DNA of 64,000 bases from Isurus oxyrinchus (Eukaryota): positions 558,001 to 622,000 of the forward strand of contig JANJGN010000301.1 in NCBI GenBank assembly GCA_026770705.1. Reading direction: 5' to 3'. Shown here one piece after another: positions 6,780-61,720 of the stretch. Numbering within the stretch: position 1 is the stretch's first letter; the number at the start of each line of letters is the position of its first letter. The position numbers were made by a program, and so were the translations under genes. The notes under the pieces are model-generated. The model saw only the letters and a program-made list of their open reading frames with translations, ran no database searches and was not told where the DNA came from.

Positions 6780-6882
6780 GAAACAAAAACAGAAAATGTT
6801 GGAAAAACTCAGCAGGTCTCACAGCATCTGTGGAGACAAAAAACTGAGTTTCCGTTTCGAGTCCTCATGACTTCTTCAGAGC
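6780..6882 (-). mobile_element. Penelope-like element terminal fragment
   Basis: Matches the terminus attached to the GIY-YIG elements at 8868 and 62490-62587. Confidence 0.7.
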
Positions 6883-7196
6883 CCGAGATCCTTCAGTGAA
6901 AGAGTCACCGCGCCACCCAGCGACCCATTGCTGTTAATACACCTTTACCTCTGCCTTTTTATGGCAAATTCCAGAGGCAAAATGATTGCACGGCGAGGAG
7001 AATCTCGGTGATTTCACTCATACTCAGGCCTCTCACAGTCACATGTCAGGTAATTGTAAACAGCAGGGGCTGTTCATCAGAGGCCCATACAGGACAGTAT
7101 ATGGAGGATGAAAGTTTCCTTTACACTGTCCCATTAATCACTCCCAGCGTCGGTGCAGCAGGGTTTAGATAGAGAGAAAAAGTTTTGTTTTTCCCT

Positions 7197-7525
7197 CTTT
7201 ATCCTTTCATGAGATACGGGTGTGGCTGGCAAGGCTGCTCTGAACAGTCCGCCTTCCGAGGCCATTTCAGAGGGCAGTTAACTGTCAACCGCATTGCCGT
7301 GGACCTGGAATCACATGTTGGTCAGGCCAGATGAAGATGACAGATTTCCTCCCCGAAAGGACTTGAGTGCAGCAGATGGGTTTTTACGACAATCGGTGAT
7401 AGTTGTCATGGTCACCATCACTGAGGCCAGTTTTCAATTCCAGATTTTATTAATTGAACTCACATTCCAGCAGCTGCCATGTTGGGATTTGAACCCCAGC
7501 CCCGAGAGCATTCGCCTGGACTCTC
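7197..7525 (-). mobile_element. tRNA-derived SINE with LINE-derived tail
   Basis: Reverse complement has B-box GGTTCAAATCC, a body homologous to 21915-22098 and 23422-23738, and the LINE-type tail. Confidence 0.75.
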
Positions 7526-7851
7526 TCTACCTTGTCCAATTAAACACTCACAAGGCAGAACGTCACAGGCCGCCTTCTCAAGTCTATTAGGGATGGGCAA
7601 TAAATGCTGGCCCAGACAGCCACACCCACATCGCATAAACGAATAACAAAAAAATACATATATACTACAGACGGTACAGTTGATACAAACCATTGGATGA
7701 TTCCTAGAGACTAGGGCCGATCTGACACAGAAACATTATCGAAGAGTAATTCTGCAAAATTATTACTACAGTTTGGGGCTTATCAGGGACACCAGGGAGC
7801 ACAAATCGTGGAAATTCCCAGGCCCTGCGGCCTGCCCGACGCAACAAACAA

Positions 7852-8233
7852 ATGAACTCACGAAGCATCGCCCCAGGGATCCTCTCTTCCTGTTCCATTC
7901 CATCTGACACCATTCTCCTGGACTCACTGAGCATCACCCCAGGGATCCTCTCTCCCTGCTCCATTCCCTCTGATACCATCCTCCTGAACTCACTGAACAT
8001 CGCCCCAGGGATCCTCTCTCCCGGCTTCATTCTCTCTGATACCATCCTCCTGAACATCGCCCCAGGGGTCCTCTCTCCCAGCTCCATTCCCTCTGATACC
8101 ATCCTCCTGAACTCACTGAACATCACCCCAGGGATCCTCTCTCCCGGCTCCATTCCCTCTGATACCATCCTCCTGAACTCGCTGAACTTCGCCCCAGGGA
8201 TCCTCCCTTCCTGCTCCATTCCCTCTGATACCA
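7852..8233. repeat. 66-bp tandem repeat, about 6 copies (one 57-bp unit)
   Basis: Unit ctgaactcactgaacatcaccccagggatcctctctcccggctccattccctctgataccatcctc starting at about 7852, 7918, 7984, 8050, 8107 and 8173. Confidence 0.95.
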
Positions 8234-8357
8234 GCTCTGATGGGAAGCTTCAACTCTCACTCCACTGATTCTGACAGAGGCTGTTATGCATTTTCAGTTT
8301 TAAACCAATAAAAAGAACTCTCTGTTTAAGCAGTGTGACATGAGCAAAGAACCCTCA

Positions 8358-8429
8358 TTCCCAAACCAGAAAGGTAATCCGGGCCGCAGCGTTGAAAGGG
8401 CTGAATTCTAACCACATGGTCACCAGGGA
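8358..8429 (-). pseudogene. tRNA-Glu(TTC) pseudogene
   Basis: 72 nt, collinear with vertebrate tRNA-Glu (TCCCTGGTG..GTGGTTAGAATTCAGCCCTTTCAACGCTGCGGCCCGG..GGGAA). T-loop/B-box destroyed. Confidence 0.8.
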
Positions 8430-8867
8430 CATTATCCTTGTGTTTTGATAAATGATACTTTTGCCTTTTATTTTCATTTCAGACTGCTTTATCCAGAGAC
8501 AAAATTGCCTATTCAGGTAACTAAACAACCATTGCCATTGGCTGGAACATGAAATTGACAGTGTGGTGAAATAGTGCCAAAAGCGGTGAATTGCAAAATT
8601 CAATTTTCAAAACCCACCAATCTAATCACTGCAGCTCCTGTGCAACTTGCAAGGCAACACACGACAGACATTCATCACTGTAAGTAATTGACCGACATAA
8701 AAGTTTTCCACTTTCATGTTACATCTTCTAACTCCTAACCTCCACCTCAGTCATTTCCAGTTCTATTTAATACCCACGTGGAACTTTAACTCTGCTCCTC
8801 GTTCCACAGATTTTGGCCGACTTGCTATGCATTTTATATTATAATAAAGCCAGGAATTTGTGCTCTA

Positions 8868-9765
8868 ATAAAAACAGAGGTGCTGAAGTTCCCAGCAGGT
8901 CTGGCAGCATCTGTGGAGACAGAAACATGTTGAATGTTTTCAGGCCATATGGCTCTTCTTCAGAACTGAAGGGAGATAGAAATGTGATGGATTTTATGCT
9001 ACTGACGGGGCGGGGTGGGGGTGGGGGTTGGGGGGGGCGGTTTAGAAAATGGAGCAAAAATGTTCAGGGATAGGTTGGAGATCTGGAGAGATTAAATGAC
9101 AAAGATATCATGGAACACAAGTCAAAGGCAAAGGGAATGATATTATTAGTTATGAAAGCAGGTGTTAATATTTAGACAAAGGTCAGCACTGACTGGAAGC
9201 AAAATAGCAGAATGTGTTAATAGCAGAAAAAGGGTCGGCGCTGTCTGAAAGCAAAACATGAGAACAAGATGCAAACTGGCACTTGGGGGTTGGGAGGCTG
9301 CAGGGAAATTAAAATGGAGGATGGAGTTCATGGTGTGAATCTGTTGACCTCAATGTTGAGTCCAGAAGGCTGTAGAGTGCCTATTGAGAAGATGAGGTGC
9401 TGTTCCTCCAGTTTGCATTGAGCTTCACTGGAACATTGTAGAAAGCTGAGGACAGAAATGTGAGTGTGAGCCAGATGGTGACGGGCAGGTCTGGGTTATG
9501 CTTGTGGACTGAGTGAAAGTGTTCCACAAAGCGGACAGTCAGTCTGTGTTTACTCTCCCCAGTGTAGAGGAGACCACCTTGAGGGCAGTGAATGCAGCAG
9601 CCTGAATTGCATGAAGTGCAAATAAATCTCTGCTTCATCTGGAAGGAGAGTTTGGGATCTTGGAGGGAGGCGGGAGGAGGTAAAGGGGCAGGTGTTACAC
9701 CTCCTGCAATTGCATGGGAAGGTGCCGTGGGAAGGGGATGAGATGTTGGGGGTGATAGTGTTTTT
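8868..9765 (-). mobile_element. Penelope-like element 3' part (degenerate GIY-YIG endonuclease plus terminus)
   Basis: FPCNCRRCNTCPF and QRFICTS..CIHCPQGGLLYTGESKHRL..RFVEH, with frameshifts. Homologous to 61768-62587. Confidence 0.85.
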
Positions 9766-9806
9766 TGGATCAGAAATTGGTTTCTGGTTGTGATATTTTG
9801 CACAAC

Positions 9807-9871
9807 AGCGAGACCGGGAATCAAACCTGGGCGATGAAAGCACCGAATCCTAACCACCAGGTCACCAGGGT
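9807..9871 (-). pseudogene. tRNA-Glu(TTC) pseudogene
   Basis: Reverse complement ACCCTGGTGACCTGGTGGTTAGGATTCGGTGCTTTCATCGCCCAGGTTTGATTCCCGGTC. Deletion in the variable region and disrupted acceptor stem. Confidence 0.85.
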
Positions 9872-9888
9872 GCTTGTGAATCATCCTG

Positions 9889-9944
9889 TTTAGAGAATTC
9901 AGCTGTCAACCAGAACATTGGTGGTTTGACACCATCTAGGGCCA
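9889..9944 (+). pseudogene. tRNA-Asn-derived 3' fragment
   Basis: TTCAGCTGTCAACCAGAACATTGGTGGTTTGACACCATCTAGGG aligns to the 3' part of the tRNA-Asn copy at 14252-14329. Confidence 0.6.
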
Positions 9945-10174
9945 GTAGATGCTCTCTATTCCTGCTTCTACTTATATTACAGACACAGTTCTGCTTTTAG
10001 TCTTTTGGTTACAAGGAAATGTTGCCCTAACTTTTCCAGCCCTGCTGTTATCCAGTAAGTTCCCAGGCAAATAGTTCTATGAATTTTTATTTCAAAGAAA
10101 ATTAGATAAATTAGAGCAAACATGTGCATAACATCCAACTCGTTGGGTTCAAAGCAACAAATATAAATTGATAC

Positions 10175-10266
10175 AGAAACAAAAATAGCTGGAAAAACTC
10201 AGCGGGTCTGACAGCACCTGCGGAGAGGAACACAGTTGACGTTTCGAGTCCGGATGACTCTTTGAA
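10175..10266 (-). mobile_element. Penelope-like element terminal fragment
   Basis: Same terminus as 47905-48006. Confidence 0.7.
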
Positions 10267-10440
10267 TAGACTCTCAAATAGAAATTGATTCTGTGATTGC
10301 ACATATAGAACTGGAACAGACCATCGCACCGAGTGAATCCATTGTCTGTTTACATGTTGCTCAGTGAAAATCTCAATCATCCTTGACTTTGTGGCATTCG
10401 GGTACTGAAACGGTAAGCAGTCTATACTCAAAAGGCATGT

Positions 10441-11060
10441 GAACATACGAATTAGGAGCAGGATTAGGCCACTCGGCCCTTCAAGCCTGTTCAGCCATTT
10501 AATAAGATCATGGCTGATCTGTTTCTAACTTCCGACCAATCCCCATGAATCTTTCAGCCTCTTGTTAAATATACCTATCTCTGCCTTAAAAAGATTCAAA
10601 GACTCTGCTTCCACTTACGACACTCTGAGAGAAAAAGAATTCTCTCATCTCTGTCTTAAATGAGCGAACCCCAATTTTTAAACAGTGACACCTATTTCCA
10701 GATTCTCCCACAAGAGGAAAGATCCTCTTCACACCCACCCTGTCAAAACCCCTCAGAATCTGAAAGATTTCGATCAAGTCACCTCTTAGCTTTCTAAATT
10801 CCAGCAGATACAGGCCTAGCCTGTCCACCCTTTCCTCATGAGACAGCCCGCCTATCCTTGATATTAGTCCAGTAAGCATTCCCTGAATGACTTCTAATGC
10901 ATTTACATCTTTCCTTAAATAAGGAGGCCAACACTCTCCACAGTACTCCAGATATGGTCATACCGGTGTCCTGTACAACTGAACTATAACCTCCTTACTT
11001 CAATTCCCCTCACAGTGAATGATAACGTTCAATCAGCTTTCCTAATTACTTGTTGTGCCT
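10441..11060 (-). mobile_element. CR1 LINE 3' fragment
   Basis: LSHEERVDRLGLYLLEFRKLRGDLIEIFQIL (CR1 ORF2 C-terminus) plus 3' tail. Confidence 0.9.
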
Positions 11061-11975: not shown

Positions 11976-12355
11976 GTGATTGAGGTGCATAAAATTATAT
12001 GGGGTATAGGTAGGGTAGACAGGAAGGAGCTTTTCCCCTTAGTGGAGGGATCAATAACCAGGGGGCGTAGATTTAAGACAAGGGGCAAAAGGTTTAGAGG
12101 GGATGCAAGGAAGAATTTTTTCACCCAGAGGGTGGTGGGAATCTGGAACACACTGCCTGAAAGAGTGGTAGAGCCAGAAACCCTCAAAACGTTAAAGAAG
12201 TATTTGTATGTGCACTTGCGATGCCATGGTATACAAGGCTATGGGCCTAGTGCTGGAAAATGGGATTAGAATATTTAGGCACTTGTTTGACGGGCACAGA
12301 CTCGATGGGCCGAAGGGCCTTTTTCTGTGCTATAGGCCTCTATGACTCTATAACT
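11976..12355 (+). mobile_element. CR1 LINE 3' fragment
   Basis: [24 protein letters not shown], tail ctatgactcta. Same subfamily as 35536-36048. Confidence 0.9.
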
Positions 12356-25305: not shown

Positions 25306-26175
25306 ATGGAAGGAGAAAGCACCATTCACAGCAGTGAGAAACCGCACACGTGTCCTGTGTGTGGACGAGGCTTCAGCCGATCATCTGGCCTGTCGAAACA
25401 CAAGTGCAGTCATGCAGGGGAGAAACCATGGAAATGTGGAGACTGTGGGAAGGGATTCAGATCCCCTTCTGAGTTGGATACTCATCAACGCACTCACACT
25501 GGGGAGAAGCCATTCATCTGCTCCATATGTGGGAAGGGATTCATTTGGTCAGCAAACTTGCTGACACACCAGCGCGTTCACACTGGGGAGAGACCGTTCA
25601 CCTGCTCTGAGTGTGGGAAGGGATTCACTCATTTATCGTCCCTGCTGAGACACCAGCGAGTTCACACTGGAGAGAGGCCATTCATCTGCTCTGCATGTGA
25701 GAAAGGATTCACTGATTCATCCAACCTGCTGAAACATCAGCGAGTTCACACAGGAGAGAGGCCATTCACCTGCTCTGCATGTGGGATAGGATTCACTGAT
25801 GCATCCAACCTGTTGAGACACCAGCGAGTTCACACTGACAAGAGACCTTTTAAATGCCCAGACTGTGGGAAGTGCTTTAAAAGTTCTGGGGATCTGATGT
25901 CCCATCAGCGTGTTCACACTGATGAGAGACCTTTTAATTGTCCAGAATGTGGGAAATGCTACAAAAGGTTCTGGGAACTAATGTTTCATCAACGTGTTCA
26001 CACTGACGAGAGACCGTTCAGGTGCTCCCACTGTGGGACTGGGTTCAGGCGATCATCTGAACTCACTGTACACCAGCGAGTTCACACTGGGGAGAGACCA
26101 TTCACCTGCTCCGAGTGTGGGAAGAGATTCACTCGGTCATCCATCCTGATGAGACACCAGCAAGTTCACAAGTAA
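25306..26175 (+). CDS. C2H2 zinc-finger protein, 10 tandem fingers, no KRAB seen (ZNF-A), intact
   Basis: ATG at 25306 (aacATGG), 10 CxxC-x12-HxxxH repeats with TGERP-type linkers. Acceptor AG at 25195-25196, in-frame stop upstream of the ATG. Confidence 0.9.
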
Positions 26176-30208: not shown

Positions 30209-31102
30209 GAATCTCACAGTGCAGAAGAGGCCCTTCGGTCCATTGAGCCTGCACCAACACGTGAGAAACAACTGACCTACCTACCTAATCCCATTTACCA
30301 GCACTTGGCCCATAGCTTTGAATGTTATGACATGCCAAGTGCTCATCCAGGTACTTTTTAAAGGATGTGAGGCAACCCACCTCCACCACCCTCCCAGGCA
30401 GCACATTGCAGACCGTCACCACCCTCTGGGTAAAAAAGTTTTTCCTCACATCCCCCCCAAACCTCCTGCCCCTCACCTTGAACTTATATTCCCTCGTGAC
30501 TGACCCTTCAACTAAGGGGAACAGCTGCTCCCTATCTACCCTGTCCACACCCCTCATAACCTTGACACCTCGATCAGATCGCCCCTCAGTCTTCCCTGCT
30601 CCAACGAAAACAACCCAAGTCTATCCAACCTCGCTTCCCAATTTAAATGTTTCATCCCAGGCAACATCCTGGTGAATCTCCTCTGCACCACCTCCAGTGC
30701 AATCACATCCTTCCTAAAATGTGGCGACCAGAACTGCACACACTACTCCAGCTGTGGCCTCACCAAGGTTCTATACAACTCCAACATGACCTCCCTACTT
30801 TTGTAATCTATGCCTCGATTGATAAAGGGATTTTATATATGTCCCATTTGCCTTTTTCACCGCCCCACTAACATGCCCCTCCGCCTTCAGAGATCTTTGG
30901 AAACACACACCAATGTCCCTTTGTTCCTCAGAACTTCCTAGTGTCATGCCATTCATTGAATACTTCCTTGTCAAATTACTCCTTCCAAAGTGAATCACCT
31001 CACACTTTTCAGGATTAAATTCCATCTGCCACTTATCTGCCCATTTGACCATCCTGTCTATATCTTCCTGTAGCCCAAGACACTTGACCTGACTGTTAAC
31101 CC
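30209..31102 (-). mobile_element. CR1 LINE 3' fragment inserted into an intronic SINE remnant
   Basis: [27 protein letters not shown]. Very similar to 36194-37164. The flanks rejoin into the sequence seen uninterrupted at 25000-25140. Confidence 0.92.
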
Positions 31103-31368: not shown

Positions 31369-32157
31369 ATGGAAGGAAAAAGCACCATTCACATTGGAGA
31401 GAAACCGTACACGTGTTCTGTGTGTGGACGAGGCTTCAATCAATCATCTGACTTGTTGAGACACAAGCGCGGTCACACTGGGGAGAAACTGTGGAAATGT
31501 GGGGAGTGTGGGAAGGGATTCAGTTACCCATCCCAGCTAGACATTCATCGACGCATTCACACCGGGGAGAAGCCGTTCAACTGCTCTGAGTGCAGGAAGG
31601 GATTCACTCAGTTATCCAGCCTGCTGAAACACAAGCAAGTTCACACTGGGGAGAGACCATTCAGCTGCTCCAAGTGTGAGAAGACATTTGCTCGATCATC
31701 CATCCTGCTAAAACATCAGCGAGTACACAGTGGGGAGAAGCCATTCACCTGCTCTGAGTGTGGGAAGGGATTCACTCAGTCATCCAACCTACTGTCACAC
31801 CAACGAATCCACACTGGGGCGAGACCATTCACCTGCTCCGAGTGTGGGAAGGGATTCAGTCAGATATCTGATCAGCTGAAACACCAGCGCGTTCACACTG
31901 GGGAGAGACCATTCACCTGCTCCGAGTGCGGGAAGGGATTCACTCAGTCATCCCACCTGCTGAGGCACCATCGAGTTCACACTGGGGAGAGACCTTTTAA
32001 ATGCCCAGACTGTGGGAAATGCTATAAATGTTCTGGTGACCTGGCATATCATCAACGTATTCACACTGATGAGAGACCATTCAGGTGCTCTGACTGTGGG
32101 AGCGGCTTCAGGAGATCATCTCAACTCACTATACACCAACGAATTCACTCTGGGTAG
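31369..32157 (+). CDS. C2H2 zinc-finger protein, 9 fingers (ZNF-B), 10th finger cut off by a nonsense codon
   Basis: ATG 31369. TAG at 32155-32157 replaces the linker Glu. The frame continues with a full finger to TAA 32236-32238. Confidence 0.85.
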
Positions 32158-32659
32158 AGACCATTCACCTGTTCCGAGTGTGGAAAGGGATTCACTCAGT
32201 CGTCCTATCTGCTGAGACACCTGCAAATTCACAAGTAACTACAGTGATTGGATTTTTCTGTTAATTTCACCCAGGACTGACCCTTGTTCATTGGTATCTG
32301 TTTCTGCTGACGTTAATAAACTCTATTCGCATTACTGGGGTTAATATTTTGGATAAAAGTCAAGTAGATCAGCTTTGTGTTAAACATGCACAGTGTGTTG
32401 AGTCTTTTTAATATCTCACTAACAAAGTTAGTTTCTTTTGAAGGGCTCTCCCTCTCCCTGTCTCCGCCATTCTCACCTCCAACAACACATTTGAGTTGCT
32501 CATGAAACTTCTTTGTCACTAAGATTGAGAGAATCTTATTAGCTGCCTCTGCTTCTTCCCTCCCTTCCACTTGTCTACCAGGATAATGCCTCTGAACTTC
32601 CCCCTCACTGACCCCCAAACCACATCTTTCTCTAGTTTCTCTCCCATCTTTCCCTGTTT

Positions 32660-33207: not shown

Positions 33208-33483
33208 TGTTCTCTGAGTCTGACAAATGTGAAAAGTTTGACCAAACCACCAAATTGGCCCAATTCTACCTAACTGTTTAACTTAGGTTAACAGAATAGG
33301 AGCACCAGGTTTGTAAATTTAATAAGTAAATAGTTGTTTATTACAAATTGTTCTCCGAGTCTGACAAATGTGAAAAGTTTGACTAAACCACCAAATTGCC
33401 CCAATTCTACCTAACTGTTTAACTTAGGTTAACAGAATAGGCACACCAGGTTTGTAAATTTATTAAGTAAATAGTTGTTTATT
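33208..33483. repeat. About 140-bp direct tandem duplication within an LTR-like insertion starting TGTCACG at about 33163
   Basis: tgttctc(t/c)gagtctgacaaatgtgaaaag...aaatagttgtttatt present twice. Confidence 0.85.
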
Positions 33484-35438
33484 GAACAAATTGTTTTTAA
33501 CCAGTGGCAAAAATAGGAAATATGAACTTATACACACACATAAGACACACTAAACATGGATTTTAAGGGTGGGATAAAACAATTCAATAGCACCAGTCCA
33601 AAGTACAGGATTTGATGGTTGATTTTGATCAATGTCTGCCAAATTCCTTTCAGTTCTTTGTTAATGACATGAGGTGGTCTTCCAGCACTTTCAGTTTTTA
33701 TTTCTCTGGTTGTGAACTTGCTTTTCAATGTCTCTAACAGTGGTTTTTCCCCTTTTCTTTTTACAGGGGTTTCCTTAGAGCAGGTTATAGAGATATAAGG
33801 AAAAGAGAATTTAGGTGTTTTCTCTTTGCAGGCCAGGAACTTTCTGCTGCACTTTCAGCTACACAAACCTTGGTCACCTGGTCAGGAGCCAATTAAAATG
33901 CTGTTGTCAGTTGGCTCCCTTGGTCCAGGACTCCTATCTACAAACATTCACTCCCTCCACCACTGACACACAGCAGCAACAGTGTGTACCATCTAAGAGA
34001 TGAACTGCAGGAATTCACCAAGGCTCCTTAGACAGCAACTTCCAAACCCATGACCACTACCATCTAGATGGACAAGGTCAGCAGACACATGGGAACACCA
34101 CCACTTGAAAGTTCCCCTCCATGTCACTCACCATCCTGACTTGGAAATATATTGCCATTCTGTTAGACTCACATCTCCCAAGACTGAAGTTTTCTTTTAC
34201 AAACTGGAAGGATTTGGCATGATCTGGACGTGTGGACGCTAACCTGGGATTTTTTTTTAAAAAAGGTCATAAATTCACCTTGGGACTGTCAACAAGCAGG
34301 CCTCTTCCAAGAAATCACCTGACCTATATGGTTCTTGAGAAGGAGTTGTTTGATTTGATAGAACTATTCAGTCATGAGGGGTCCAGACAGAGTAGATAGG
34401 GAGAAATTGTTCCTACTCGTGAAAGGATCCAGAACAAGAGGGCACAGATTCAAAGTAATTAGTAAAAGAAGCAAAAGTGATATGAGCAGAAATGTATTTT
34501 TACGCAGCGAGTGGTTAGGGTCTGGAATGCACTGCCTGAGGGTGTGGTGAAGGCAGGTTCAACTGAAGCATTCAAAAGGGAATCAGACTATTACCTGAGA
34601 TCAAAGAATGTGCAGGGTTAGGGGAAGAAGGCAGGGGGATGGAACTCGGTGAGTTGCTCCTGTACACTCTTTAGAATTGTACCCTTTATTTCTATATTGT
34701 CTCTCCGTGCTCCTCGTACCAAAATGAATCACTTCACATTTCTCTGCATTGAACTTCATCTGTCCGCCCATTCCACCAGAGAAATGGCCACATCGCAGTT
34801 TAGGAGCCAGGAGGCAGAAAGGAAGAAGTATTTAGATGAGCACTTGAAACGCCACAGCATCCAAGTGCTGGAAAATGGGATTAGAATAGATCAGGGTTTG
34901 ATGGCCGGCACAGACACGATGGGCTGAAAGACCTGTTTCTGTGCTGTATAACTAACTCTATCTTTGAAATGAGTGACCACCAGACAGTCCAAGAGAACTA
35001 GGCAGGTATTGCGCTCATCGATCAATTTTGTTTTGTTCACTGGTGAGGACATTGGTTCCTCAGAGGTGTGCAGTCAGAGCCAGGTTTGTGGCACCACGAG
35101 CAGTTCTGCTGTACAGGAGGAGAGGAAGAGAGGAAGAGCTATAATGATAGATTTGTTATTTTGGGGAACAGACAGGTGCTTCTGTGGCTATATACATGAC
35201 TCCAGGATGGTATGTTGCCTCTCTGGTGCCAGGGTCAAGGATGTCATGGAGCGGCTGCAGGACACTCCATGGGGGAGGGTGATCAGCCAGAGATCATGGT
35301 CCACATTGGTACCAATGACTTAGGTAGGAAAGGGGATGAGGTTCTGCAAGCAGACTTTAGGGATCTAGGGAGGGCACTGAAAAGCAGGGCCTCTAAAGCA
35401 GTAATCTCAGGATTATTCCCAGTCCCACAAGCAAATGT

Positions 35439-35529
35439 GGCTCTGTGGTGCAATGGACAGCATGTTGGCCTTCTCATCAGTGATAGGTCAGGTATTCAAA
35501 GGTTGTGGATTCAAATCCCACCAGAGTCA
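35439..35529 (+). pseudogene. Intron-containing tRNA-Arg(TCT) copy (retroposed pre-tRNA)
   Basis: GGCTCTGTGGTGCAATGGACAGCATGTTGGCCTTCTC [18-nt intron 35476-35493] ATTCAAAGGTTGTGGATTCAAATCCCACCAGAGTCA, collinear with vertebrate Arg-TCT. Several inactivating substitutions. Confidence 0.9.
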
Positions 35530-35535
35530 CATTTT

Positions 35536-36048
35536 AAGGATGTGATTGCACTAGAGAGAGAGCAGAGGAGATTTACCAGGATGTTGCCCGGGCTGGAGAG
35601 TTTTAGTTGTGAGGAGAGATTGGATAGACTAGGGTTATTTTCCCTGGAGCAGAGGAGATTGAGGGGGACATGATTGAAGTGTATAAAATTATGAAGGACA
35701 TAGATAGGGTAGCCAGGAAGGAACTTTGCCCCTTGGCGGAGGGATCAATAACCAGGGGGCATAGATTTAAGGTAAGGGGCAGGAGGTTTAGAGGGGATGT
35801 GAGGAAGAATTTTTTCATCCAGAGGGTGGTGGGAACCTGGAACTCACTGCCTGAAAGGGTGGTAGGGGCAGAAAGCCTCATAACATTTAAGAAGTATTTG
35901 GATGTGCACTTGTGATGCCATGGTATACAAGGCTATGGGCCTAGTGCTGGAAAATGGGATTAGAATAATTAGGTACTCCTTTGACCTGCACAGACTCGAT
36001 GGGCCAAAGGGCCTTTTTCTGTGCTGTAGACCTCTATGACACTATGAC
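35536..36048 (+). mobile_element. 5'-truncated CR1 fused to the pre-tRNA
   Basis: [36 protein letters not shown], tail ctatgacactatgac. Confidence 0.92.
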
Positions 36049-36193
36049 AAGCGAGTATAGAAATAGGAGAACTGAGCGAATAAACAAATGGCTGGAAAGT
36101 TAGTGTTGGAGGGAGGGCCTCAGATTTCTGAGGCATTGGGACCAGTTCTGCGGAACATGGGACCTATACAAGGTCTACACCTGAATAGGGATC

Positions 36194-37164
36194 TGTGCTC
36201 GGTCCCCTATTATTTGTCATTTATATAAACGGCAGCGATGACTATGTGGGGGGTAGGATTAGTAAGTTTGCATATGATACAAAGATTGGCCGGGTAGTTA
36301 ACAGTGAGGTTGAGTGTCTTGGGGTACAGGAAGATATAGACGGGATGGTCAAATGGGCAGATAAGTGGCAGATGGAATTTAACCCTGAAAAGTCTGAGGT
36401 GATACACTTTGGAAGGAGTAATTTGACAGGGAAGTATTCACTGAATGGCATGGCACTAGGAAGTTCTGAGGAACAAAGGGACCTTGGCGTTTGTGTCCAT
36501 AGATCTCTGAAGGCACAGGGGCATGTTAGTGGGGCAGTGAAAAAGGCATATGGGACACTTGCCTTTATCAATCAAGGCATAGATTACAAAAGTAGGGAGG
36601 TCATGTTGGAGTTGTATAGAACCTTGGTGAGGTCACAGTTGGAGTACTGTGTGCAGTTCTGGTCGCCACATTATAAGAAGGATGTGATTGCACTGGAGGG
36701 GGTGCAGAGGAGATTCACCAGGATGTTGCCTGGGATGAAACATTTATGTTATGAAGAGAGGTTGAATAGACTTGGGTTGTTTTCGTTGGAGCAGAGAACA
36801 CTGAGGGGCGACCTGATCAAGGTGTACAAGATTATGAGGGGCATGGACAAGGTGGATAGGGAGTAGCTGTTCCCCTTAGTTGAAGGGTCAGTCACAAGGG
36901 GGCATAAGTTCAAACTAAGGGACAGGAGGTTTAGGGGGGATGTGAGGAAAAACTTTTTTACCCAGAGGGTGGTGACGGTCTGGAATGCACTGCCTGGGAG
37001 GGTGGTGGAGGCTTTAAAAAGTACCTGGATGAGCACTTGGCATGTCATAACATTCAAGGCTATGGGCCAAGTGCTGGTAAATGGGATTAGGTAGGTAGGT
37101 CAGGTGTTTCTCATGTGTCAGTGCAAACTTGATGGGCCGAAGGGCCTCTTCTGCACTGTGATTC
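36194..37164 (+). mobile_element. CR1 3' fragment nested in the older CR1 ORF1
   Basis: VLGPLLFVIYIN..SKFAYDTK..LEYCVQFWSPH, a long nearly open frame. Confidence 0.92.
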
Positions 37165-40100
37165 AGGGACAAATATCCTCACAAGGAGATTTTCTAATGC
37201 TGTTGGAGTGCAGGGGATGGGGCAGACGGGTTTGGTTTAAACTAGATTGGCAGGGGAATGGGAACCTGAGGGAAAATTCAGAGCAGGGAACAGGAGATGG
37301 AGAATTAATGAGTGACTCTGAAAGACAGAAGCAGCACAGGTTAAAAAATGTGCAGCACAGGAACTTGGCAGTGTTAAAATGTGTATTTGTAAATGCAAGG
37401 AACATAGTAAATAAAGCCGATGAGCTGAGGGCACAGGTAGGCACATGGCAGCATGATATCATTGGTATAATGGAAATCTGGCTTAAGGAAGGGCAAAAAT
37501 GGCAGCTCAACACACCTGTATATAGAGTTTTCAAGCAGGATAGGAGGGGGATAAAGAAGTTGGGGGTGCAGCATTATCAATTAAAGGATCAATTACAGCT
37601 GTGAGGAGGGATGCTATACTAAATGAAGCATCAAATGAGGCCATATGGGTTGACCTCAGAAATAAAAAAGGGCAGCCACACTGCGAGGAGTGTACTATCA
37701 ACCTCCAAATTGTGGAAGGGAGTTAGAAGAGCAAATATGTGGACACATTTCTGAGTGCAAAAACAACAGGGCAGTAATAGTTGGGGACTTCAACTACCCT
37801 AATATCAATTGGGATAGGAACACAGTGTGAAGGATACAGAGGGCGCACAGTTCTTGAACTGCATTCAAGAGAACCTTTCTGGCCAGCGCGTAACAAGCCC
37901 AGTGAGACTGGGTGCAATTCTAGAATTAGTCTTAAGAAATGAAGCTGGGCAAGTGGATGAAGTAGCAGTGGGAACCACTTTGGAGATAGTGACCATAATC
38001 TGGTTAGATTTAGCATCATTACAGAAAAGGACAAAGATAGAACAGGAGTAAATGTTCTAAATTAGGGGATGACAAATTTTCCAAAGCTGAGAGGTGAGCT
38101 GGCAAGAGTGGACTGGATACGGCTATTAGAAGGAAAAACTGTCAAATCAGTAGGAGGCATTCAAGATTCTATGGGCACAGTGTAGACGTGTCCTTTCAAA
38201 GAAAAAGGGTGGTACTGCCAAATCTAGATCTCCCTGGTTGTTCAGAAGAATACAGGCCAAGATAAAGCACAAAAAGAAAACTTATGATAATCACAAAAGA
38301 CTTACTGTAGGAGGCTTAGAGGAGTATAGAAAGTACGGGGGTGAAGTAAAAATGGAAATTAGGAAAGTAAAGAGAGGATTTAAAAAAATATTGGCAGGTA
38401 AAATCAAAGAAAATCCTAATATGTTTTACCAGTACATTAAGAGCAAGAGAATAACTAAGGAAAAGCTAGGGCCAATCAGAGATGTACAAGGTAGCTTGTG
38501 GTGAGGGCAGGGTTCTCAACAAGTACTTTGTCTTTGTCTTCATTAAGGAGAGGGATGATACAGACATTCCAGTTAAAGAGGAGTGTGAATTATTAGATAC
38601 AATAATCATAGTGAGAGAGGAAGTACTGGAGGGGCCGGCAGCCTTGAAGACGGATATATCACCAGAGCCGGATGGATTGTATCCCAGGCTGTTGAATGAA
38701 GCCAGGGAGGAAATTGCAGATGTTCTGAAGATCATTTTCCAATCCTCACTAGATATAGGTGAGGTCCCAGAGAATTGGAGGTCTGTGAACATTGTACCAC
38801 TATTTAAAAAGGGTGCAAGGGATAGGCCAGAAAATTATAGGCCAGTCAGTCTGACTTCTGTGGTGGGCAAATTATTAGAAACAATTCTGACAGGATAACT
38901 TGTCCCTTAGAAAGACACAGATTGATCAGGGATAGTCAGCATGGTTTTGTCAGGGGGATATCATGTCTTACTAACTTAACAGAATTTTTTGAGGAAGTGA
39001 CAAGGATTGATGAGAATATTGCAGTGGATGTTGTCTACATGGATTTCAGTAAGATATTTGACAAGGTCCCACATGGCCGACTAGTCAGGAAAGAGATCTC
39101 ATGGGATACGGGGGAAGGTGGCAGGTTGGATCCAAAGTTGGTTCAGTGACAGGAAACAAAGCGTAATTGTCAATGGCTGGTTTTGTGAAGGAAAAATGGT
39201 TTCCTGTGGTGTTCCACAGGGCTCAGTGTTGGGGCCCTAGCTGTTTGTTGTGTATATTAATGATTCAGACTGAAATGTGGGAGGCATGATTGGGAAATTC
39301 GCATATGATATAAAAAAAGGCTATGTAGTTGATAGTGAAGAGGATAGCTGTTGACTCCAGAATGATATCAATGGTTTGGTCGAGCGGGCGGAGAAGTGGC
39401 AAATGGAATTCAATCCTGAAGAGCTGGAGGTAATGCATTTGGAGTGAGCAAATAAAGCAAGGGCATTCTCAATAAATGGGAAGTTATTGAGAGGGGTTGA
39501 GGAACTGAGAGACCATGGAGTGCATGTCCATAGGTCCTTGAAGTTGGCAGGACAGGTGGACATGGTGGTAAAGAGAGCATATGGAATGCTTTCCTTTAGT
39601 GGGTGAGTTACTGAACACCAAAACAGGCTGTAATAATAAAACTGTATCAAACGTTGGTTAGGCCACAGCTGGAATTTTGTGTACAGTTCTGGTCACATTA
39701 TAGTAAGGACACAAATGCTCTGGAGAGAGTACAGAGGAGATTTACAAGAATGTTTCCAGGGCTTGAAAATTGCAGCTATGAGAGAGATTGGATAGGCTAG
39801 GGTTGTTTTCCTTTGAACAGAGGAGACTAAGCAGTGACCTAGTTGAGGTGTACAAAATTATGAGGGGCCAAGATAGGGTAGACAGGAAAGACTTGTTTCC
39901 CCTAGCTGAGGGGTCAATTACCAGGGGGCACAGATTTCAGGTGGTAGAAAGGTTAGAGGGGGACATAAGGCAAATCGTTTTCACCTAGAGGGTGGTGGGC
40001 ATCTGGAATTCACTGCCTAAATTGGTGGTTGAGGCTGAAAAGCTCAAGTCATTTATAAGGTACATGGATCTGCATCTGAAACACTGTAACCTGCAACACT

Positions 40101-42625: not shown

Positions 42626-43396
42626 TCACTCGTGAACCTGCTGGTGTCTCCGCAAGTGGGATGACTGAGTGAATCCCTTCCCACACACAGAGCAGGTGAA
42701 CGGCCTCTCCCCACTGTGAGTGCGTCGGTGTCTGTGCAAATGAGATGACCGAATGAATCTCTTCCCACACTCAGGGCAGGTGAACGGCTTCTCCCCAGTG
42801 TGAACTCGCTGGTGGGTCAGCAGGGTGGTTGACACACGGAATCCCTTCCCACACTCAGAGCAGGTGTACGGCTTCTCCCCAGTGTGAGTGCGCTGATGTA
42901 TCAGCAGTGTGAATGACCGAGCAAATCCCTTCCCACACTCAGAGCAGATGAATGGCCTCTCCCTAGTGTGAGTATGCTGGTGTGTCAGCAGGTGGGCTGA
43001 CTGAGTGAATCCCTTCCCACATTCAGAGCAAATGAACGGTCTCTCCCCAGTGTGAACTTGCTGGTGCGCAGTGAGTTGAGATGATCGCCTGAACCCAGTT
43101 CCGCAGTGAGAGCATATGAACGGTTTCTCTTCAGTGTGAACACGTTGATGGGATCTCAGTTCCCCGGAATTTTTAAAGCACATCCCGCAATCTGGGCATT
43201 TAAATGGTCTCTCCCCAGTGTGAGTTCGCTGGTGGGTATGTAAGCTGGATAACTGAGTGAATCCCTTCCCACATACGGAGCAGGTGAACGGCCTTTCCCC
43301 GGTGTGACTGCGTCGATGAATTTCCAGCACAGACGGGGATCTGAAGCCCTTCCCACAGTCCCCACATTTCCATGGTTTCTCCGTGGTGCAGGTGCC
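42626..43396 (-). CDS. C2H2 zinc-finger ORF, 9 intact fingers, family start ATG mutated to ACG (ZNF-D, gene or young pseudogene)
   Basis: 257 codons open after TAG at 43397-43399. [14 protein letters not shown] where paralogs have MEKPWKC. Confidence 0.65.
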
Positions 43397-48509: not shown

Positions 48510-49505
48510 ATATTAGAAGGAGAGAATTTGTAGACACAATTTGAATCGAACATCACATCAAGATCTGACAGTCACTTGATTCATCAGGACCTGAATATCA
48601 TCAGCCCTTGAATGTGTAATGAAAAATGTTTGTTCGTGGGAAAAGGTTTCAAACATCAGTGTGACTGGAAAAACACCGAGACACACACACACCAGAGTGA
48701 GAGTATTCCAGTGCACTGACTGTGGAAAGAGCTTTAACTGGTTACACAACTGGAAAAAAAAGTTACATCATTTACAATGGGGAGGAACTGTTGTGTATGT
48801 GAAAAAGGCTTCATCTGATCATCAAACACCATAGAGAAACCATGGAAATGTGGGGACTGTTTGCAGGCATTCACTACCCCCTCCAAGCTGGAAACTCATC
48901 GACGCACTCACACTGGGGAGAGACCATTCACCTGTTCTGAGTGTGGGAAGGGATTCACTCAGTCATACAGCCTAGCATTACACCAGCGAGTTCATTAAGG
49001 GGAGAGGCCATTCACCTGCTCCGTGTGTGGGAAGAGATTTGTTAATTCTTCCAACCTTCTGAGACACCAGCACGTACACAGTGAGGAAAAACCATTCATT
49101 TGCTCTTATTGTGGAAAGACCTTCAGTCTTTCAACCATCCTCATCTCACACCAGCGAGTTCACACCGGGGAGAGGCCATTCATCTGCTCCGTGTGTGGGA
49201 AGGGATTCACTGAGTCAGCTAACCTAGCATTACATCAGCGAGTTCACACTGGGGAGAGGCCATTCACCTGCTCCGTGTGTGGGAAGGGATTTATTAATTC
49301 ATCCAATCTGGTGTCCCACCAGCGAGTTCACACTGAGGAGAAACCGTTCAGCTGCACTTCCTGTGGAAAGAGCTTCAAGCATTCAAGTAATCTCAGTGTG
49401 CACCTGCGAGTTCACACAGGAGAGAGGCCATTCACCTGCTCCCATTGTGGGAAGGGATTCACTTGTTCCTCTCACCTGGTGAGGCATCAGCGACTTCACA
49501 AGTGA
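48510..49505 (+). pseudogene. C2H2 zinc-finger pseudogene (ZNF-E), 8 fingers
   Basis: Start ATG changed to ATA at about 48831, TAA at 48996-48998, six intact fingers downstream. Confidence 0.85.
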
Positions 49506-50023: not shown

Positions 50024-52164
50024 TAACGGACTGAGAATTCGCCATCTAATAAACTTATGAAATCTTCAGAAATTTATGGAATATTATCAAAATTGTTCAC
50101 TCACTCTCTTATGAAGGAAGCTTCCATAGCAGCTTACTGGATGACAAATACAGGACAGGCCTGTTATCTCTGCCAAGGAGGCCTCAAGCACATTTCCTGA
50201 AACAAGACATTTCTAACCCTGTTACAATTGAATCTCATGACCCATATTTAAACCAACTGTCTGTCTGAAGGTTAAAACAGGCTCTCGAAAGCAAAAAGAT
50301 TTCAAAATGACTCGTACTGGCTTCAGCCCAGCACCCACACTCTGGCTCACACCAGTAAACCGTTCAAAGGAGATTGCAGCCACCAGCTACAGAGACCAGC
50401 ACTCACTCTGCATCATCCGTCCATTTGTCCTCCAGGACTGGTCAACCATTCTGACCTGTCACGGGTCATCCGTTTTCCTGTCTATTTAGCTCATTGATCA
50501 TATTTAAACTGTTGCTTCTCAATAAACTACTTTCAAACACTTCTGAGCTCGACCCCCTTTTTCGGGTAATCTGTGACTTCCAGACCTAAATCTTACAAGG
50601 TGTGTTCGGAGCAGGATCATAGTGGTCGAGGTCCTAGGCTTGAGAAGTAACAGTCTTAGTTAAATGTGAATGGGGAAGTTCCTAAGTAAAGCCAGGAGTA
50701 TGTAATGACATTAACATATTACAGGGAACGATGGACAGATAGACTGACAGAAAATGGGCACGCCAGGGGCGAGAGATATCCTGGGGATTGTAGAAGGGAA
50801 TGATGGGAATTACAAATGTATCTCTATAGGCTTTCTAAAGAGGTTCAAAAAGGCCAAATTGAATTGAAGAAAGTCTAGAATCAGTTGGAAAATATCCACC
50901 AGGTGGATGCAGGTGAAGAAAGAGCTGGAAAATCTTTAAATTCCATGCATAAACTTTTGTTTGAACCATATGTATTTTTGACATGCCAATAATTTAGAAT
51001 TATGTGAGATTTTCTGCAGGTGGGGAGGATGAATCGAAATTGATAGCTATCATATTTACTGGATATAATTTTTACATTTATTCTTGTTGGCAGCTCAAGG
51101 GTTTGAGTTGCTGATTCTGATAATTCTAGTAGTTTTAGTATGTTATTGATGGTATGTAATCATGAAATTATGAAAACAAGCTCTTAGCTTAGAAATAGCT
51201 GGGTTAGCCAGGATATTTCCTTCTCAAGGTGGGGAGATGTGGAAGAAATCATTGTCCAATAACCATGTAATTTTTAAAGAAATTTACTGATTGTAGGAAT
51301 AGCTCTCTCTCTCTCTCTCTCTCACTTATGAAGAAAGCTTCCTGGGTTGACAAGCACAGGACAGTGAGGCCTGTTATCTCTGCCAAGGACATGTCTCCAG
51401 CACAGACCCTGAAACAAGACAAACTTGATCGGGTCAGTGGAGGGTAGGGATGGGTGATCTCATGACCCATGTGTAAACCAACTGTCTAAGTAAAGGTTAA
51501 CAGGATGCCCTAGAAAATGATGAACCACTAAATGACTTCAAGGATTTCCAATGGAAATAGGAGGGATTAACTTGAAAATCTATCCCTTGATAATTGAATA
51601 AGTGATTGACAAAAGACCCCCAGAAATAATATATATAAACAGCCTTTCAAGAGGGAAATTACTTCAGAGAAGAAAGAACTTCTCGGTGATCCATGCTGGC
51701 TTAGGCTGAACACTTTGGTTCAAAGAAACCGAGAAAGGAAGAGACTGTCACCTCCAGCCACGGAGATCATCATCCCCCTGATCCGAGACCAGTAAACCAT
51801 TCCGAGGTGACTGTCATCTTCAGCCATGGAGATCAGCATCCCCCTGATCCGAGACCAGTAAACCATTCTGAGGAGACTGTCATCTTCAGCCATGGAGATC
51901 AGCATCCCACTGATCCGAGACCAGTAAACCATTCTGAGGAGACTGTCACCTCCAGCCCCGGAGATCAGCATTCCCCCCTTGCTTATCTGCATCCATTTAT
52001 CCAATCAGCGACCAGTAAACCGTTCTCACCTGTTATGGGTCGTATGTTTTTTCTGCCTATTTAACTGATGTGTCATATCTAAACATATCTAAAATGCTTT
52101 AAAATCACCTAAGACTTCGACCCCCATTTTGGGTAATCTGTGACTCCTGGACTAAAATCTTACA
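50024..52164 (+). mobile_element. Non-autonomous LTR element (5' LTR about 50024-50597, internal about 640 bp, 3' LTR 51238-52164)
   Basis: Two homologous blocks both ending AAATCTTACA. Purine tract AAGGTGGGGAGA before TG at 51238, TATA-like at about 51630, AATAAA at 50521. Confidence 0.75.
51741..51975. repeat. 66-bp tandem repeat x about 3.5 inside the 3' LTR
   Basis: Units start at 51741, 51807, 51873 and 51939. Confidence 0.92.
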
Positions 52165-59449: not shown

Positions 59450-60390
59450 TCAGCACAGGAGCTGGCAGCATTTTAAATCCCAATTGTATGCTTCTCTTGT
59501 AGCTGGTGTACGAGAAGATCATGTCCACTGTAGATCCACCAGCACAGAAACTGCACTGTGCTTCTGGGTACACTCAGTCTGCAATAAGTTAAAGTGTTTA
59601 AGCATGACCACAGTGAAGGTCATCCCTATGATGCTAAGGTGTGAGATACCCCTGTAGTTGTTGCAATCCCATCCGTCATCATTGTTTTTGTATATTGTGA
59701 TGAGTTTTGCATTATGCATATCTTGTTCCAACTTTTCAGAGGAGGTGGTCACAATATCTGGGATTTCCTGTGCCTGAACAGTTTGTTTAGAACACTATCC
59801 TTGTCAGGTGATTTACTGCTTGCTAAGCAATAATTGGCCTGTTCAAACTCAAATGATGTACATCTCACAGGAGTACAGCTCACAGTAATGTTCAACCCAG
59901 TGGGACATCTGTTTAATTATGTCAGTGAGTACATCACCATCTGTGATTTCAGGGGTCAACTTTGGTGATGGTCGGACCAAGTACCCTCTTGATCCCATCA
60001 TACATAGCACATACATTTCCACTGTGACAGGCAGTTTGGATTTCTTGATATAAACTGATTGTGTTTATTTGCACAGGATCTCCCTATCTCTTACGTGACT
60101 GTCTTGACTACTTTCAAATTGTGCAGTGTTCTAGCTGTTGGGTTTATGTTGTGCATCAGGTAGGCTTTGCTTTTTGCTTCAATGACAGATGTTATCTCAG
60201 CTGAATAGGTGTTAAACCAGTCTTTGTTGTGGGTTCCACCTTTACCAAATGTTGCTGCTGCTGTGTCAGAAATGATGGAACTCAGCAACTTCCAAGCTTC
60301 ATCAATATCATTGTTGATTGATGAAGCTTTTATTGATGTGCCTGTAAAATATTTACTGCTTTGTTTAATGTTCCTTATTAATTTAACCTC
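59450..60390 (-). mobile_element. RTE-clade LINE fragment
   Basis: AKLITIYKN..DCNNYRGISHLSIIG, YPEAQCSF..STVDMIFS, TFGK..NKDWF. Confidence 0.85.

Positions 60391-60776: not shown

Positions 60777-61720
<944 letters not shown>

What the first reader, a model, noticed from the sequence alone, without database searches (positions are those of the whole stretch)
35433..36055. Unspliced pre-tRNA-Arg(TCT) fused to a CR1 3' end and inserted as one unit into an older CR1
Seen: the host CR1 ORF1 reads [11 protein letters not shown], breaks at about 35434, and resumes SEYRNRR at about 36050. Between the two halves lie a few leader-like bases, a full tRNA-Arg(TCT) with its 18-nt intron (35476-35493), CATTTT, and a 5'-truncated CR1 with its own tail. 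ACAAGC occurs on both sides (possible TSD). Known: U6/L1-type chimeric retrocopies arise by template switching or RNA ligation, and a tRNA head plus LINE tail is the basic SINE design. Inference: this is a chimeric retrotranscript made from nuclear pre-tRNA, or a nascent intron-bearing SINE. The junction is ambiguous. TTTT may be the Pol III trailer, or it may be CR1-derived, since the CR1 copy at 30209-31102 reads GTCGCCACATTTTAGGAAGG, which would mean a switch at microhomology.
Basis: partly seen in the sequence, partly recalled or inferred. Interest (0 to 1): 0.75.

Follow-up and report, generated by a model that had tools for sequence, protein, structure and literature searches.

The report
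Unspliced tRNA precursor fused to retrotransposon
A decayed copy of an intron-containing arginine tRNA is joined to the tail of a CR1-type retrotransposon inside an older CR1 copy, likely captured as an unprocessed precursor in one reverse-transcription event and probably a dead, low-copy fossil of the step by which tRNA-derived SINEs are thought to arise.

Summary
An intron-bearing tRNA-Arg(TCT) pseudogene (35439-35529) followed by CA+T4 is joined in sense to a 512-nt 5'-truncated CR1 3' end (35536-36047), and the unit splits an older CR1 ORF1. Reads of uninterrupted host paralogues show a net 616-nt insertion with a 3-nt duplication, CAA, not ACAAGC, and only CAA restores the ORF1 frame. The CR1 family does not read TTTT at the junction, so the T-run is most simply the Pol III terminator. 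The 4 bases before the tRNA pair exactly with base 73 and the trailer, tying both junctions to one molecule. Read depth over the tRNA is 2-7 against 3,100-10,700 over the CR1 tail, and five T>=4 runs would stop Pol III: not an amplified SINE, though about ten related copies remain unresolved. Best reading (0.72): a one-off pre-tRNA/CR1 chimeric retrocopy made by a template switch in the nucleus. The source tRNA gene and an orthologous empty site were not obtained. New variant of a known kind; interest 0.4.

The parts
35033..35431 (+). Host CR1-like element, ORF1 esterase (SGNH/GDSL-like) region, left of the insertion; degenerate (stops and a frameshift near 35265)
   Evidence: tblastn with ORF1 homologues; Pfam Lipase_GDSL_2 E 0.0024 and OSK E 0.0016, both below the curated cut-offs; 93 relatives at E<=0.001
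35432..35434 (+). Left copy of the 3-nt target site duplication, CAA
   Evidence: Joint 35431->36048, skip 616, 3 letters fit either side, in all 4 runs; frame test
35435..35438 (+). Four non-host bases before the tRNA: pre-tRNA 5' leader, or a fold-back copy of base 73 and the trailer; exact reverse complement of 35529-35532
   Evidence: Host paralogues read G at 35435 where the window has A; pairing
35439..35475 (+). tRNA-Arg(TCT) 5' exon, decayed (A-box and anticodon-stem changes, C at position 37)
   Evidence: Rfam; comparison with intact genes L001-L003
35476..35493 (+). tRNA intron, 18 nt, G at -3 able to pair with C32
   Evidence: introns of L001-L003 are 19, 17 and 19 nt, each with G at -3
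35494..35529 (+). tRNA 3' exon with discriminator A73; G53 changed to A, breaking a T-stem pair
   Evidence: A73 also in 2 of 3 intact genes
35530..35535 (+). CA plus T4: inferred pre-tRNA 3' trailer and Pol III terminator
   Evidence: Sequence; family state differs; intact genes L001-L003 have their first T4 at +20, +5 and +7 after base 73
35536..36047 (+). 5'-truncated CR1 3' end (512 nt): end of ORF2, 3' UTR, hairpin about 35988-36024, two 8-nt tail units 36032-36047
   Evidence: 74-89% identity to four other window copies; 335 of 378 aligned bases identical to the copy at 11977-12354; hairpin z -2.42, 5 of 200 shuffles as good; depth 3,100-10,700
36048..36050 (+). Right copy of the duplication, CAA; its C also continues the tail unit (1-nt 3' microhomology)
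   Evidence: Joints and loose ends behind 36048
36051..36186 (+). Host ORF1 resumes (SEY...), up to a second nested CR1 insertion

Best explanation
This is a 613-nt unit made of an intron-containing tRNA-Arg(TCT) copy joined in sense to a truncated CR1 tail and flanked by one 3-nt duplication inside an older CR1, and it was likely made in a single retrotransposition event when the CR1 reverse transcriptase switched from CR1 RNA onto an unprocessed nuclear pre-tRNA. Inferred steps: (1) CR1 ORF2 protein nicked the host copy and primed at the 8-nt tail repeat; (2) it copied 512 nt of CR1 RNA; (3) it jumped to the U-tract 3' end of a pre-tRNA that still held trailer and intron, probably helped by a nearby imperfect 7-of-8-nt match between the two RNAs; (4) it copied the tRNA to its 5' end, either through a 4-nt leader or by folding back on the acceptor stem for 4-6 nt, and joined the target through up to 2 shared A's, leaving a CAA duplication; (5) the copy then decayed neutrally. 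It would not propagate as a SINE, because Pol III would stop at the T4 right behind the tRNA and at four further T-runs before the tail that the CR1 enzyme needs. Within this reading I put template switch at about 0.55, RNA ligation before reverse transcription at 0.25, and priming of the second strand by the pre-tRNA at 0.2.
For: Shown: one insertion point, net 616 nt, CAA on both sides, in joints from all 4 runs, with the host frame restored and the residue count matching homologues (41 of 93 carried the anchor motif). Intron at the canonical site with the anticodon-intron pair (rule from PMC8479045, passages), which marks a precursor or gene rather than mature tRNA. No CCA; CA+T4 instead. 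The unit starts 4 nt before and ends 6 nt after the tRNA, as a transcript would, without longer gene flanks. The 4 leader bases pair with 35529-35532 (chance about 0.4-0.5%), 6 pairs if the duplicated AA is counted. At most about 27 of 4,973 (X20) and 17 of 5,876 (X24) CR1 reads could run on through 35528-35530, by arithmetic on the bin depths, so no sizeable CR1 subfamily reads CATTTT there. Low depth over the head (2.7-8.7 copy-equivalents over intron and 3' exon if the genome is 3-6 Gb, my assumption). Decay is similar in both halves: 10 and 11 of 73 exon positions differ from L001 and L002, 3 and 4 of them at CpG, and 0 CpG remain against 4, 4 and 3; the CR1 part differs at 43 of 378 bases from its sibling. 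Precedent: U6 chimeras with L2 and RTE LINEs have 1-9 bp duplications, and pre-tRNA retropseudogenes are known (PMC4476161, passages).
Against: The source tRNA gene was not obtained, so leader and trailer are inferred, not matched. No orthologous empty site was seen: the joints come from paralogues and cannot be told from an empty allele; none of the 16 listed pieces (of 76,046) spans the stretch. A 3-nt duplication is weak alone. The junction lies 3 nt from the only 7-of-8 match in about 900 nt of CR1 (chance 0.1-0.7%), which a homology-free jump leaves as coincidence. The 2-nt trailer is short against the human mean of 8.1 +/- 3.7 nt (PMC9705548, passages), and an unbroken leader-trailer helix is atypical, since most human pre-tRNAs with extended stems have a bulge at -1/+1 (PMC8457004, passages). 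In organism A about 9-10 copy-equivalents of contig depth cover 35435-35442 (333 against 25-45 for single contigs) and are unexplained. Reads like human DNA are dropped by the tool, which can lower depth over a tRNA.
Confidence: 0.72

Rival explanations
1. Two independent insertions at one spot: a pre-tRNA retrocopy landed in the host CR1 and a CR1 later inserted exactly at its T-rich end (or the reverse), the 7-of-8 match serving as 5' microhomology with the target.
For: The region is rich in nested CR1 insertions: a second one lies 140 nt downstream in the same host ORF1. Truncated non-LTR insertions often attach by microhomology (R1/R2, PMC2718515, passages). Stand-alone unprocessed tRNA retrocopies exist in mammals (PMC5322556, passages). 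It explains the nearness of the junction to the matching site.
Against: No second duplication or leftover target base at either internal junction; one CAA pair brackets everything. The second insertion would have to hit the first one's end to the base. Stand-alone retrocopies are rare where LINEs need their own tail (PMC4476161, passages). Both halves show similar decay.
Confidence: 0.1
2. One event, but CATT is CR1-derived: the enzyme switched at short homology (CA) onto an intron-containing tRNA whose trailer was already removed, and later mutation made the T-run and removed 3 nt.
For: 35528-35535 matches the CR1 family at 7 of 8 bases, 3 nt upstream of 35536, and it is the only such site in each of 3 window copies of about 900 nt. 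The 4 bases before the tRNA could be a fold-back copy rather than a leader.
Against: Needs an A-to-T change and a 3-nt deletion within 8 nt of the junction that together mimic a terminator at the right place; the only recurring indel listed for the 512-nt CR1 part is 1 nt at 35662. The family reads TAT, not TTT.
Confidence: 0.08
3. A member of a small amplified family: an intron-bearing tRNA-headed, CR1-tailed SINE-like element with a handful of copies.
For: tRNA head plus CR1 tail is the build of TguSINE1 and PittSINE (PMC5729268, passages) and of HE1 in sharks and rays (PMC3747384, table passage). About 9-10 copy-equivalents cover leader and 5' exon in organism A, and 4-8 the intron bin in organism B.
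Against: Head depth is about a thousandfold below tail depth; the low-copy signal is what source genes or local duplicates would also give. Five T>=4 runs; T4 and T5 end human Pol III transcripts very efficiently in vitro (PMC3141230, passages). The 512-nt tail includes ORF2 coding sequence. In organism B contigs (X12) only about one copy-equivalent matches at 35442. No junction match in the metagenome collection, though that collection may hold little DNA of this animal.
Confidence: 0.06
4. DNA-level capture: a piece of a tRNA gene was used as filler or template while the 5' end of the CR1 copy was being joined to the target.
For: An intron is present in the gene as well as in the precursor, so the intron alone does not prove an RNA template.
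Against: Both ends fall at transcript-like limits (4 nt before the tRNA, at the T-run after it); a DNA patch has no reason to stop at both. Orientation is sense to the CR1.
Confidence: 0.04

Closest known systems
U6/LINE chimeric retrocopies (U6/L1; U6/L2 and U6/Mon-1 in platypus; U6/L1, L2, RTE in Anolis; one unresolved U6/CR1-like copy in turkey) (PMC4476161, PMC6789731, PMC11838501)
   Same: Full-length Pol III RNA ending in a T-run, sense to a 5'-truncated LINE 3' end, one duplication around the unit, short duplication as with L2 (1-9 bp), each junction unique.
   Different: The head is a pre-tRNA with intron, not U6; the LINE is CR1-like. U6 ends in a 2',3'-cyclic phosphate that RtcB needs, whereas nascent pre-tRNA ends in UUU-OH, so ligation is less direct here.
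Human tRNA/L1 chimeras (Law and Burns, PMC13174262; 21 loci, Table S3 read in full for tRNA rows)
   Same: tRNA sequence at the 5' end of a truncated LINE, inserted in one event.
   Different: By my reading of the table 16 of 21 are antisense and most are halves. Of the 5 sense cases, 3 are 5' halves of Tyr, Tyr and Arg-AGA ending at nt 35-38 and 2 are near full-length Glu; none is listed as both exons with an intron between them.
tRNA-headed, CR1-tailed SINEs: TguSINE1, PittSINE, tortoise Pol III/SINE, HE1 V-SINE of sharks and rays with HER1 (PMC5729268, PMC3747384)
   Same: tRNA head, CR1-clade tail with hairpin and 8-bp terminal repeat; template switching onto a tRNA proposed as their origin.
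   Different: Not amplified; intron and terminator kept; tail long and partly coding; no central domain between head and tail.
Tailless tRNA retropseudogenes, processed or unprocessed (Schmitz 2004, not read; as described in PMC5322556 and PMC4476161)
   Same: Retrocopy of a tRNA precursor, taken as evidence of nuclear capture.
   Different: Those are 3'-truncated, tail-less and L1-mobilised; this one is complete at its 3' end and carries a LINE tail.

Membership tests
small-RNA/LINE chimeric retrocopy (U6/L1 type) | Small RNA copy directly 5' of a 5'-truncated LINE with intact 3' end, same orientation | tested here: met
small-RNA/LINE chimeric retrocopy (U6/L1 type) | One target site duplication around the whole unit | tested here: met
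   CAA, net 616 nt, from host paralogue joints in 4 of 4 runs and frame test; only 3 nt long
small-RNA/LINE chimeric retrocopy (U6/L1 type) | Both parts arrived together (presence/absence at orthologous loci) | tested here: inconclusive
   Two organisms hold the stretch but no listed piece spans it; no genome held
small-RNA/LINE chimeric retrocopy (U6/L1 type) | Unique junction, no further self-propagation | tested here: inconclusive
   At most about 10 copy-equivalents over the head; 1 versus several not resolved
small-RNA/LINE chimeric retrocopy (U6/L1 type) | Head ends match the ends of the source transcript | tested here: inconclusive
   Leader-like and trailer-like ends present and mutually paired; source gene not found (one search gave 3 genes with other introns)
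RtcB-ligated chimera (U6/L1 mechanism) | 2',3'-cyclic phosphate on the small RNA and 5'-OH on the LINE RNA | not testable with these tools
   Chemistry of the ends is not recorded in DNA; a junction without microhomology fits but does not prove it
tRNA-derived SINE with CR1 tail | tRNA-derived head and LINE-derived tail with hairpin and terminal repeat | tested here: met
   head decayed
tRNA-derived SINE with CR1 tail | Many dispersed copies sharing the head-tail junction | tested here: not met
   Depth 1.7-6.9 over the head against 3,100-10,700 over the tail, with the caveat of the human-like read filter
tRNA-derived SINE with CR1 tail | No Pol III terminator (T>=4) between head and tail end | tested here: not met
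   T4 at 35532, 35601, 35638; T6 at 35810; T5 at 36014
HE1 / V-SINE | V-domain between head and tail; similarity to HE1 | not testable with these tools
   No repeat library held; the head joins CR1 coding sequence directly, leaving no room for a central domain
tailless tRNA retropseudogene | 3'-truncated tRNA without tail | tested here: not met
   tRNA complete to base 73, followed by a LINE tail
functional tRNA-Arg(TCT) gene | Intact stems, purine at 37, G53-C61 pair | tested here: not met
   ARAGORN 0 genes; unpaired 31-39 and 53-61, C37
CR1 clade (host and tail) | Esterase ORF1, AP endonuclease and RT ORF2, 3' hairpin and 8-nt repeat | tested here: met
   Weak Pfam hits, all below cut-off: GDSL-like, RVT_1 (in the related copy at 36189), Exo_endo_phos; hairpin and repeat; the two inner ORF2 pieces themselves had no Pfam hit
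CR1 clade (host and tail) | RT phylogeny placing it in CR1 rather than L2 | not tested
   No tree was built; the label rests on the features above and on recalled family anatomy

The most novel reading that the evidence does not exclude
The roughly ten copy-equivalents seen over leader, exons and intron in organism A are dispersed daughters of this fusion: a small SINE-like family whose head is an unspliced pre-tRNA, copied by the CR1 enzyme despite its internal terminators. I found no intron-bearing tRNA SINE head.
Probability: 0.06. Interest if true: 0.75.

Novelty: new variant of a known kind. Interest (0 to 1): 0.4.

Why it matters
tRNA-headed, CR1-tailed SINEs are thought to begin with a switch of the LINE enzyme onto a tRNA, but the founding fusions are usually inferred from mature families. 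This copy looks like such a fusion frozen at birth, and its intron and T-run date the capture to the nuclear precursor stage, for a LINE of the tail-dependent type in what is probably a cartilaginous fish. It also shows why most such fusions would fail: the precursor brings its own terminator. It makes a genome-wide question testable with a simple search: how often CR1 tails carry precursor versus mature tRNA heads, and whether junctions show homology (switching) or none (ligation). As a single decayed locus it has no likely function.

Tried and rejected
ACAAGC as duplication: rejected. High-copy SINE: rejected. A CR1 subfamily that reads CATTTT at the junction: rejected by bin depth. Working tRNA gene: rejected. 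Assembly artefact: unlikely, because both outer junctions restore the host to the base and the tRNA is decayed, but no listed read or contig spans the unit. Ligation of a spliced-off 5' exon: rejected, the intron and 3' exon are present. No whole genome was held, so the genome-wide junction search could not be run. Junction motif in the metagenome collection: 0 matches; 3' exon motif: 3 loci there, all intact-looking genes with other introns, and 0 in the viral collection; none is the source gene. Rfam at E<=1 found no second tRNA-like head in the window; a hit to BYDV_5_UTR at 59527-59688 (25.5 bits against 75) is taken as chance. The fold of 35435-35535 is not more stable than shuffles (z -1.54, 18 of 200); only the terminal pairing is used. 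Earlier findings of this scan: nothing in 3 look-ups. Paper searches for a described intron-bearing tRNA/CR1 chimera or SINE returned none; most subscription papers (Ogiwara, Buzdin, Schmitz 2004, Ichiyanagi and Okada) were not available and repeat databases could not be searched. PMC2912911, PMC5786205 and PMC4758252 (passages) added nothing specific.
Full report
Observation. Rfam finds one family at gathering score in the 64-kb window, a tRNA at 35439-35529 (44.1 bits, E 4.2e-6); ARAGORN finds no gene. Numbered as a tRNA it has anticodon TCT and an 18-nt insertion between positions 37 and 38 (35476-35493), where eukaryotic tRNA introns lie, with C32 facing G at intron position -3 (rule from PMC8479045, passages). 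Three intact-looking tRNA-Arg(TCT) genes from the metagenome collection (L001-L003) align over both exons and carry introns of 19, 17 and 19 nt with G at -3. The window copy differs from L001 and L002 at 10 and 11 of 73 exon positions, 3 and 4 of them at CpG (L003 was not counted), has no CpG left against 4, 4 and 3, and has unpaired 31-39 and 53-61 positions and C at 37. It is a decayed copy. Its introns differ from those of L001-L003, so none of them is the source.

The tail and the host. From 35536 to 36047 the sequence is 74-89% identical to four other repeats in the window and ends in a hairpin (z -2.42) and two 8-nt units, the anatomy described for CR1 3' ends (PMC5729268, passages). Its closest window sibling (11977-12354) differs at 43 of 378 bases. 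The two ORF2 pieces of this tail had no Pfam hit; the related copy at 36189 gave RVT_1 at E 8e-4, below cut-off. The host is a degenerate element with an esterase-type ORF1 (weak Pfam hits; 93 relatives), and endonuclease- and RT-like frames further on. Two of six relatives looked up have a named member, from a skate and from the whale shark, so the window is probably from a cartilaginous fish. I built no tree, so CR1 rather than L2 rests on anatomy.

The insertion site. I laid four public runs on 35291-36190 at 80% likeness: contigs of organism A (X1) and B (X12) and raw reads of B (X20, X24; about 1,887 million letters each), 4 of the 24 runs listed. Uninterrupted host copies join across the unit. 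The joint 35431 to 36048 skips 616 nt with 3 letters fitting either side, in all four runs; the joints from 35425, 35427 (to 36047) and 35428 come to the same net 616 once their listed 6, 3 and 3 letters between are counted. One row (35427 to 36048, skip 620) has no letters shown, 159 rows of that table being hidden. Homologues have the same residue count across the site (41 of 93 shown). The hexamer on both sides is an accident of a locally repetitive target. The insert proper is 35435-36047, 613 nt. These joints come from paralogues; they do not show an orthologous empty allele, and none of the 16 pieces listed (of 76,046) spans the stretch.

The inner junction. That is not the family state: 4,973 and 5,876 reads that stop aligning at 35536 continue with TAT-AGG (agreement 0.85 and 0.82), as do two other window copies for TAT. 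Mean depth in the bin 35501-35530 is 2.73 and 1.7, so at most about 27 and 17 CR1 reads could run on through 35528-35530; no sizeable subfamily reads CATTTT. The simplest reading is tRNA base 73, a 2-nt trailer, a T4 terminator, then CR1 with no shared base; it needs no later change. Against it, the junction lies 3 nt from the only site in each of three copies of about 900 nt that matches the unit's last 8 bases at 7 or 8 positions, a chance of 0.1-0.7% for a random junction. Reading CATT as CR1-derived needs an A-to-T change and a 3-nt loss that together mimic a terminator. A middle reading, real trailer and homology-assisted switch with 3 nt lost in joining, explains both facts. The trailer is short against the human mean of 8.1 +/- 3.7 nt (PMC9705548, passages); L001-L003 have their first T4 at +20, +5 and +7.

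The outer 5' junction. Leader-trailer pairing is known in pre-tRNAs, but mostly with a bulge at -1/+1, and an unbroken extension hinders RNase P (PMC8457004, passages). So either the source precursor had an unusually tight, slowly processed end, or the cDNA folded back on the acceptor stem and copied 4-6 more bases before joining the target. Either way the tRNA and the bases behind it were one molecule at insertion. In organism A the contig depth that does not read host G at 35435 (333) equals the depth at 35442 (333), which hints that related tRNA copies share the leader, but other letters at that place may be hidden.

Copy number. Raw-read depth (both mates) is 6.9 and 5.7 over the 5' exon, 2.47 and 2.5 over the intron, 2.73 and 1.7 over the 3' exon, against 3,100-10,700 over the tail and 200-1,250 over the host. 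For a genome of 3-6 Gb (my assumption) that is 2.7-8.7 copy-equivalents over intron and 3' exon and 9-22 over the 5' exon. Contigs of organism A give 342-445 over the head, about ten times a single contig, against 0.6-4 million over the tail; contigs of B give about one matching copy at 35442. The tool warns that contig depth is no copy number and that reads like human DNA are dropped, over half on some conserved stretches; that would not easily make a thousandfold dip, but it blurs the low range. An amplified SINE is excluded for practical purposes; one copy versus a handful (source genes, local duplicates, or a micro-family) is open. Mechanism agrees: T4 directly behind the tRNA, then T4, T4, T6 and T5 before the tail, and T4 and T5 stop human Pol III very efficiently in vitro, though read-through occurs in some contexts (PMC3141230, passages).

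How it most likely arose. Shown: anatomy, duplication, low copy, decay. Inferred: a CR1 enzyme primed at its tail repeat, copied 512 nt, switched to the U-tract end of an unspliced pre-tRNA-Arg(TCT), copied it to the 5' end and joined the target, in one event (0.72). Ligation before reverse transcription, as for U6/L1, needs a 2',3'-cyclic phosphate (PMC6789731, passages), while nascent pre-tRNA ends in UUU-OH, so I rank it second. Rivals: two insertions at one spot (0.10), CR1-derived junction (0.08), small family (0.06), DNA-level capture (0.04).

Comparison with what is known. It works like U6/LINE chimeras, known for L1, L2 and RTE with one unresolved CR1-like case, and with 1-9 bp duplications for L2 (PMC4476161, passages; PMC11838501, abstract, passages and section 21). 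tRNA/L1 chimeras are described in human: 21 loci, mostly antisense halves (PMC13174262, passages and the tRNA rows of Table S3). By my reading 16 of 21 are antisense; 3 of the 5 sense cases are 5' halves of Tyr, Tyr and Arg-AGA ending at nt 35-38, and none is listed with both exons around an intron. Unprocessed tRNA retrocopies are known as tailless L1 products (PMC5322556, passages; the original paper was not read). The head-tail build is that of TguSINE1, PittSINE and HE1, but two defining SINE features were tested and not met. Searches for a described intron-bearing tRNA/CR1 chimera or SINE head found none; subscription papers, repeat databases and supplements other than the one named were not seen and could hold such a case.

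Verdict. Real, a new variant of a known kind: a full-length, sense, intron- and terminator-bearing tRNA precursor on a CR1 tail. It is a neat fossil of nuclear RNA capture and of the first step of SINE birth, but one decayed locus of a known process, with source gene and orthologues unseen. Interest 0.4.

Noticed in passing
window 36187-37169: A second 5'-truncated CR1 (about 36192-37164, 90% identical to the copy at 30214-31100) is nested in the same host ORF1, 140 nt downstream, with AGGGA at both edges. The host thus runs from about 35.0 to 40.2 kb with two nested insertions.
   Followed up: partly
PMC13174262 Table S3, tRNA sheet: Three of the five sense-oriented human tRNA/L1 chimeras are 5' halves of Tyr, Tyr and Arg-AGA ending at nt 35-38, isotypes that carry introns (recalled for Tyr). 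These could be splicing 5' exons with cyclic-phosphate ends ligated to L1 RNA; I did not see this reading in the passages read.
   Followed up: no
window 25494-26170, 31551-32233, 42632-43142, 48908-49463, 60782-61285: Five arrays of 81-84-nt units (and multiples) that look like C2H2 zinc-finger repeats, on both strands; the window is probably part of a zinc-finger gene cluster, where local duplication could explain a few extra copies of this locus.
   Followed up: no
window 35442 (runs X12, X20, X24): Organism B holds a related tRNA-like sequence with A instead of T at tRNA position 4 (one contig of depth 20.2; 4 of 8 raw reads), not seen in organism A contigs.
   Followed up: no
window 34780-34950: Just upstream of the host lies a short, internally deleted CR1-like 3' end, 72% identical to the inner tail over 144 columns.
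   Followed up: no
window 3425-3800, 7853-8233, 33208-33495, 51741-51977: Tandem arrays of 52, 66, 141 and 66 nt units, not examined.
   Followed up: no
L001 300-393: An intact-looking tRNA-Arg(TCT) gene with A73 and no T4 until 20 nt after base 73.
   Followed up: no
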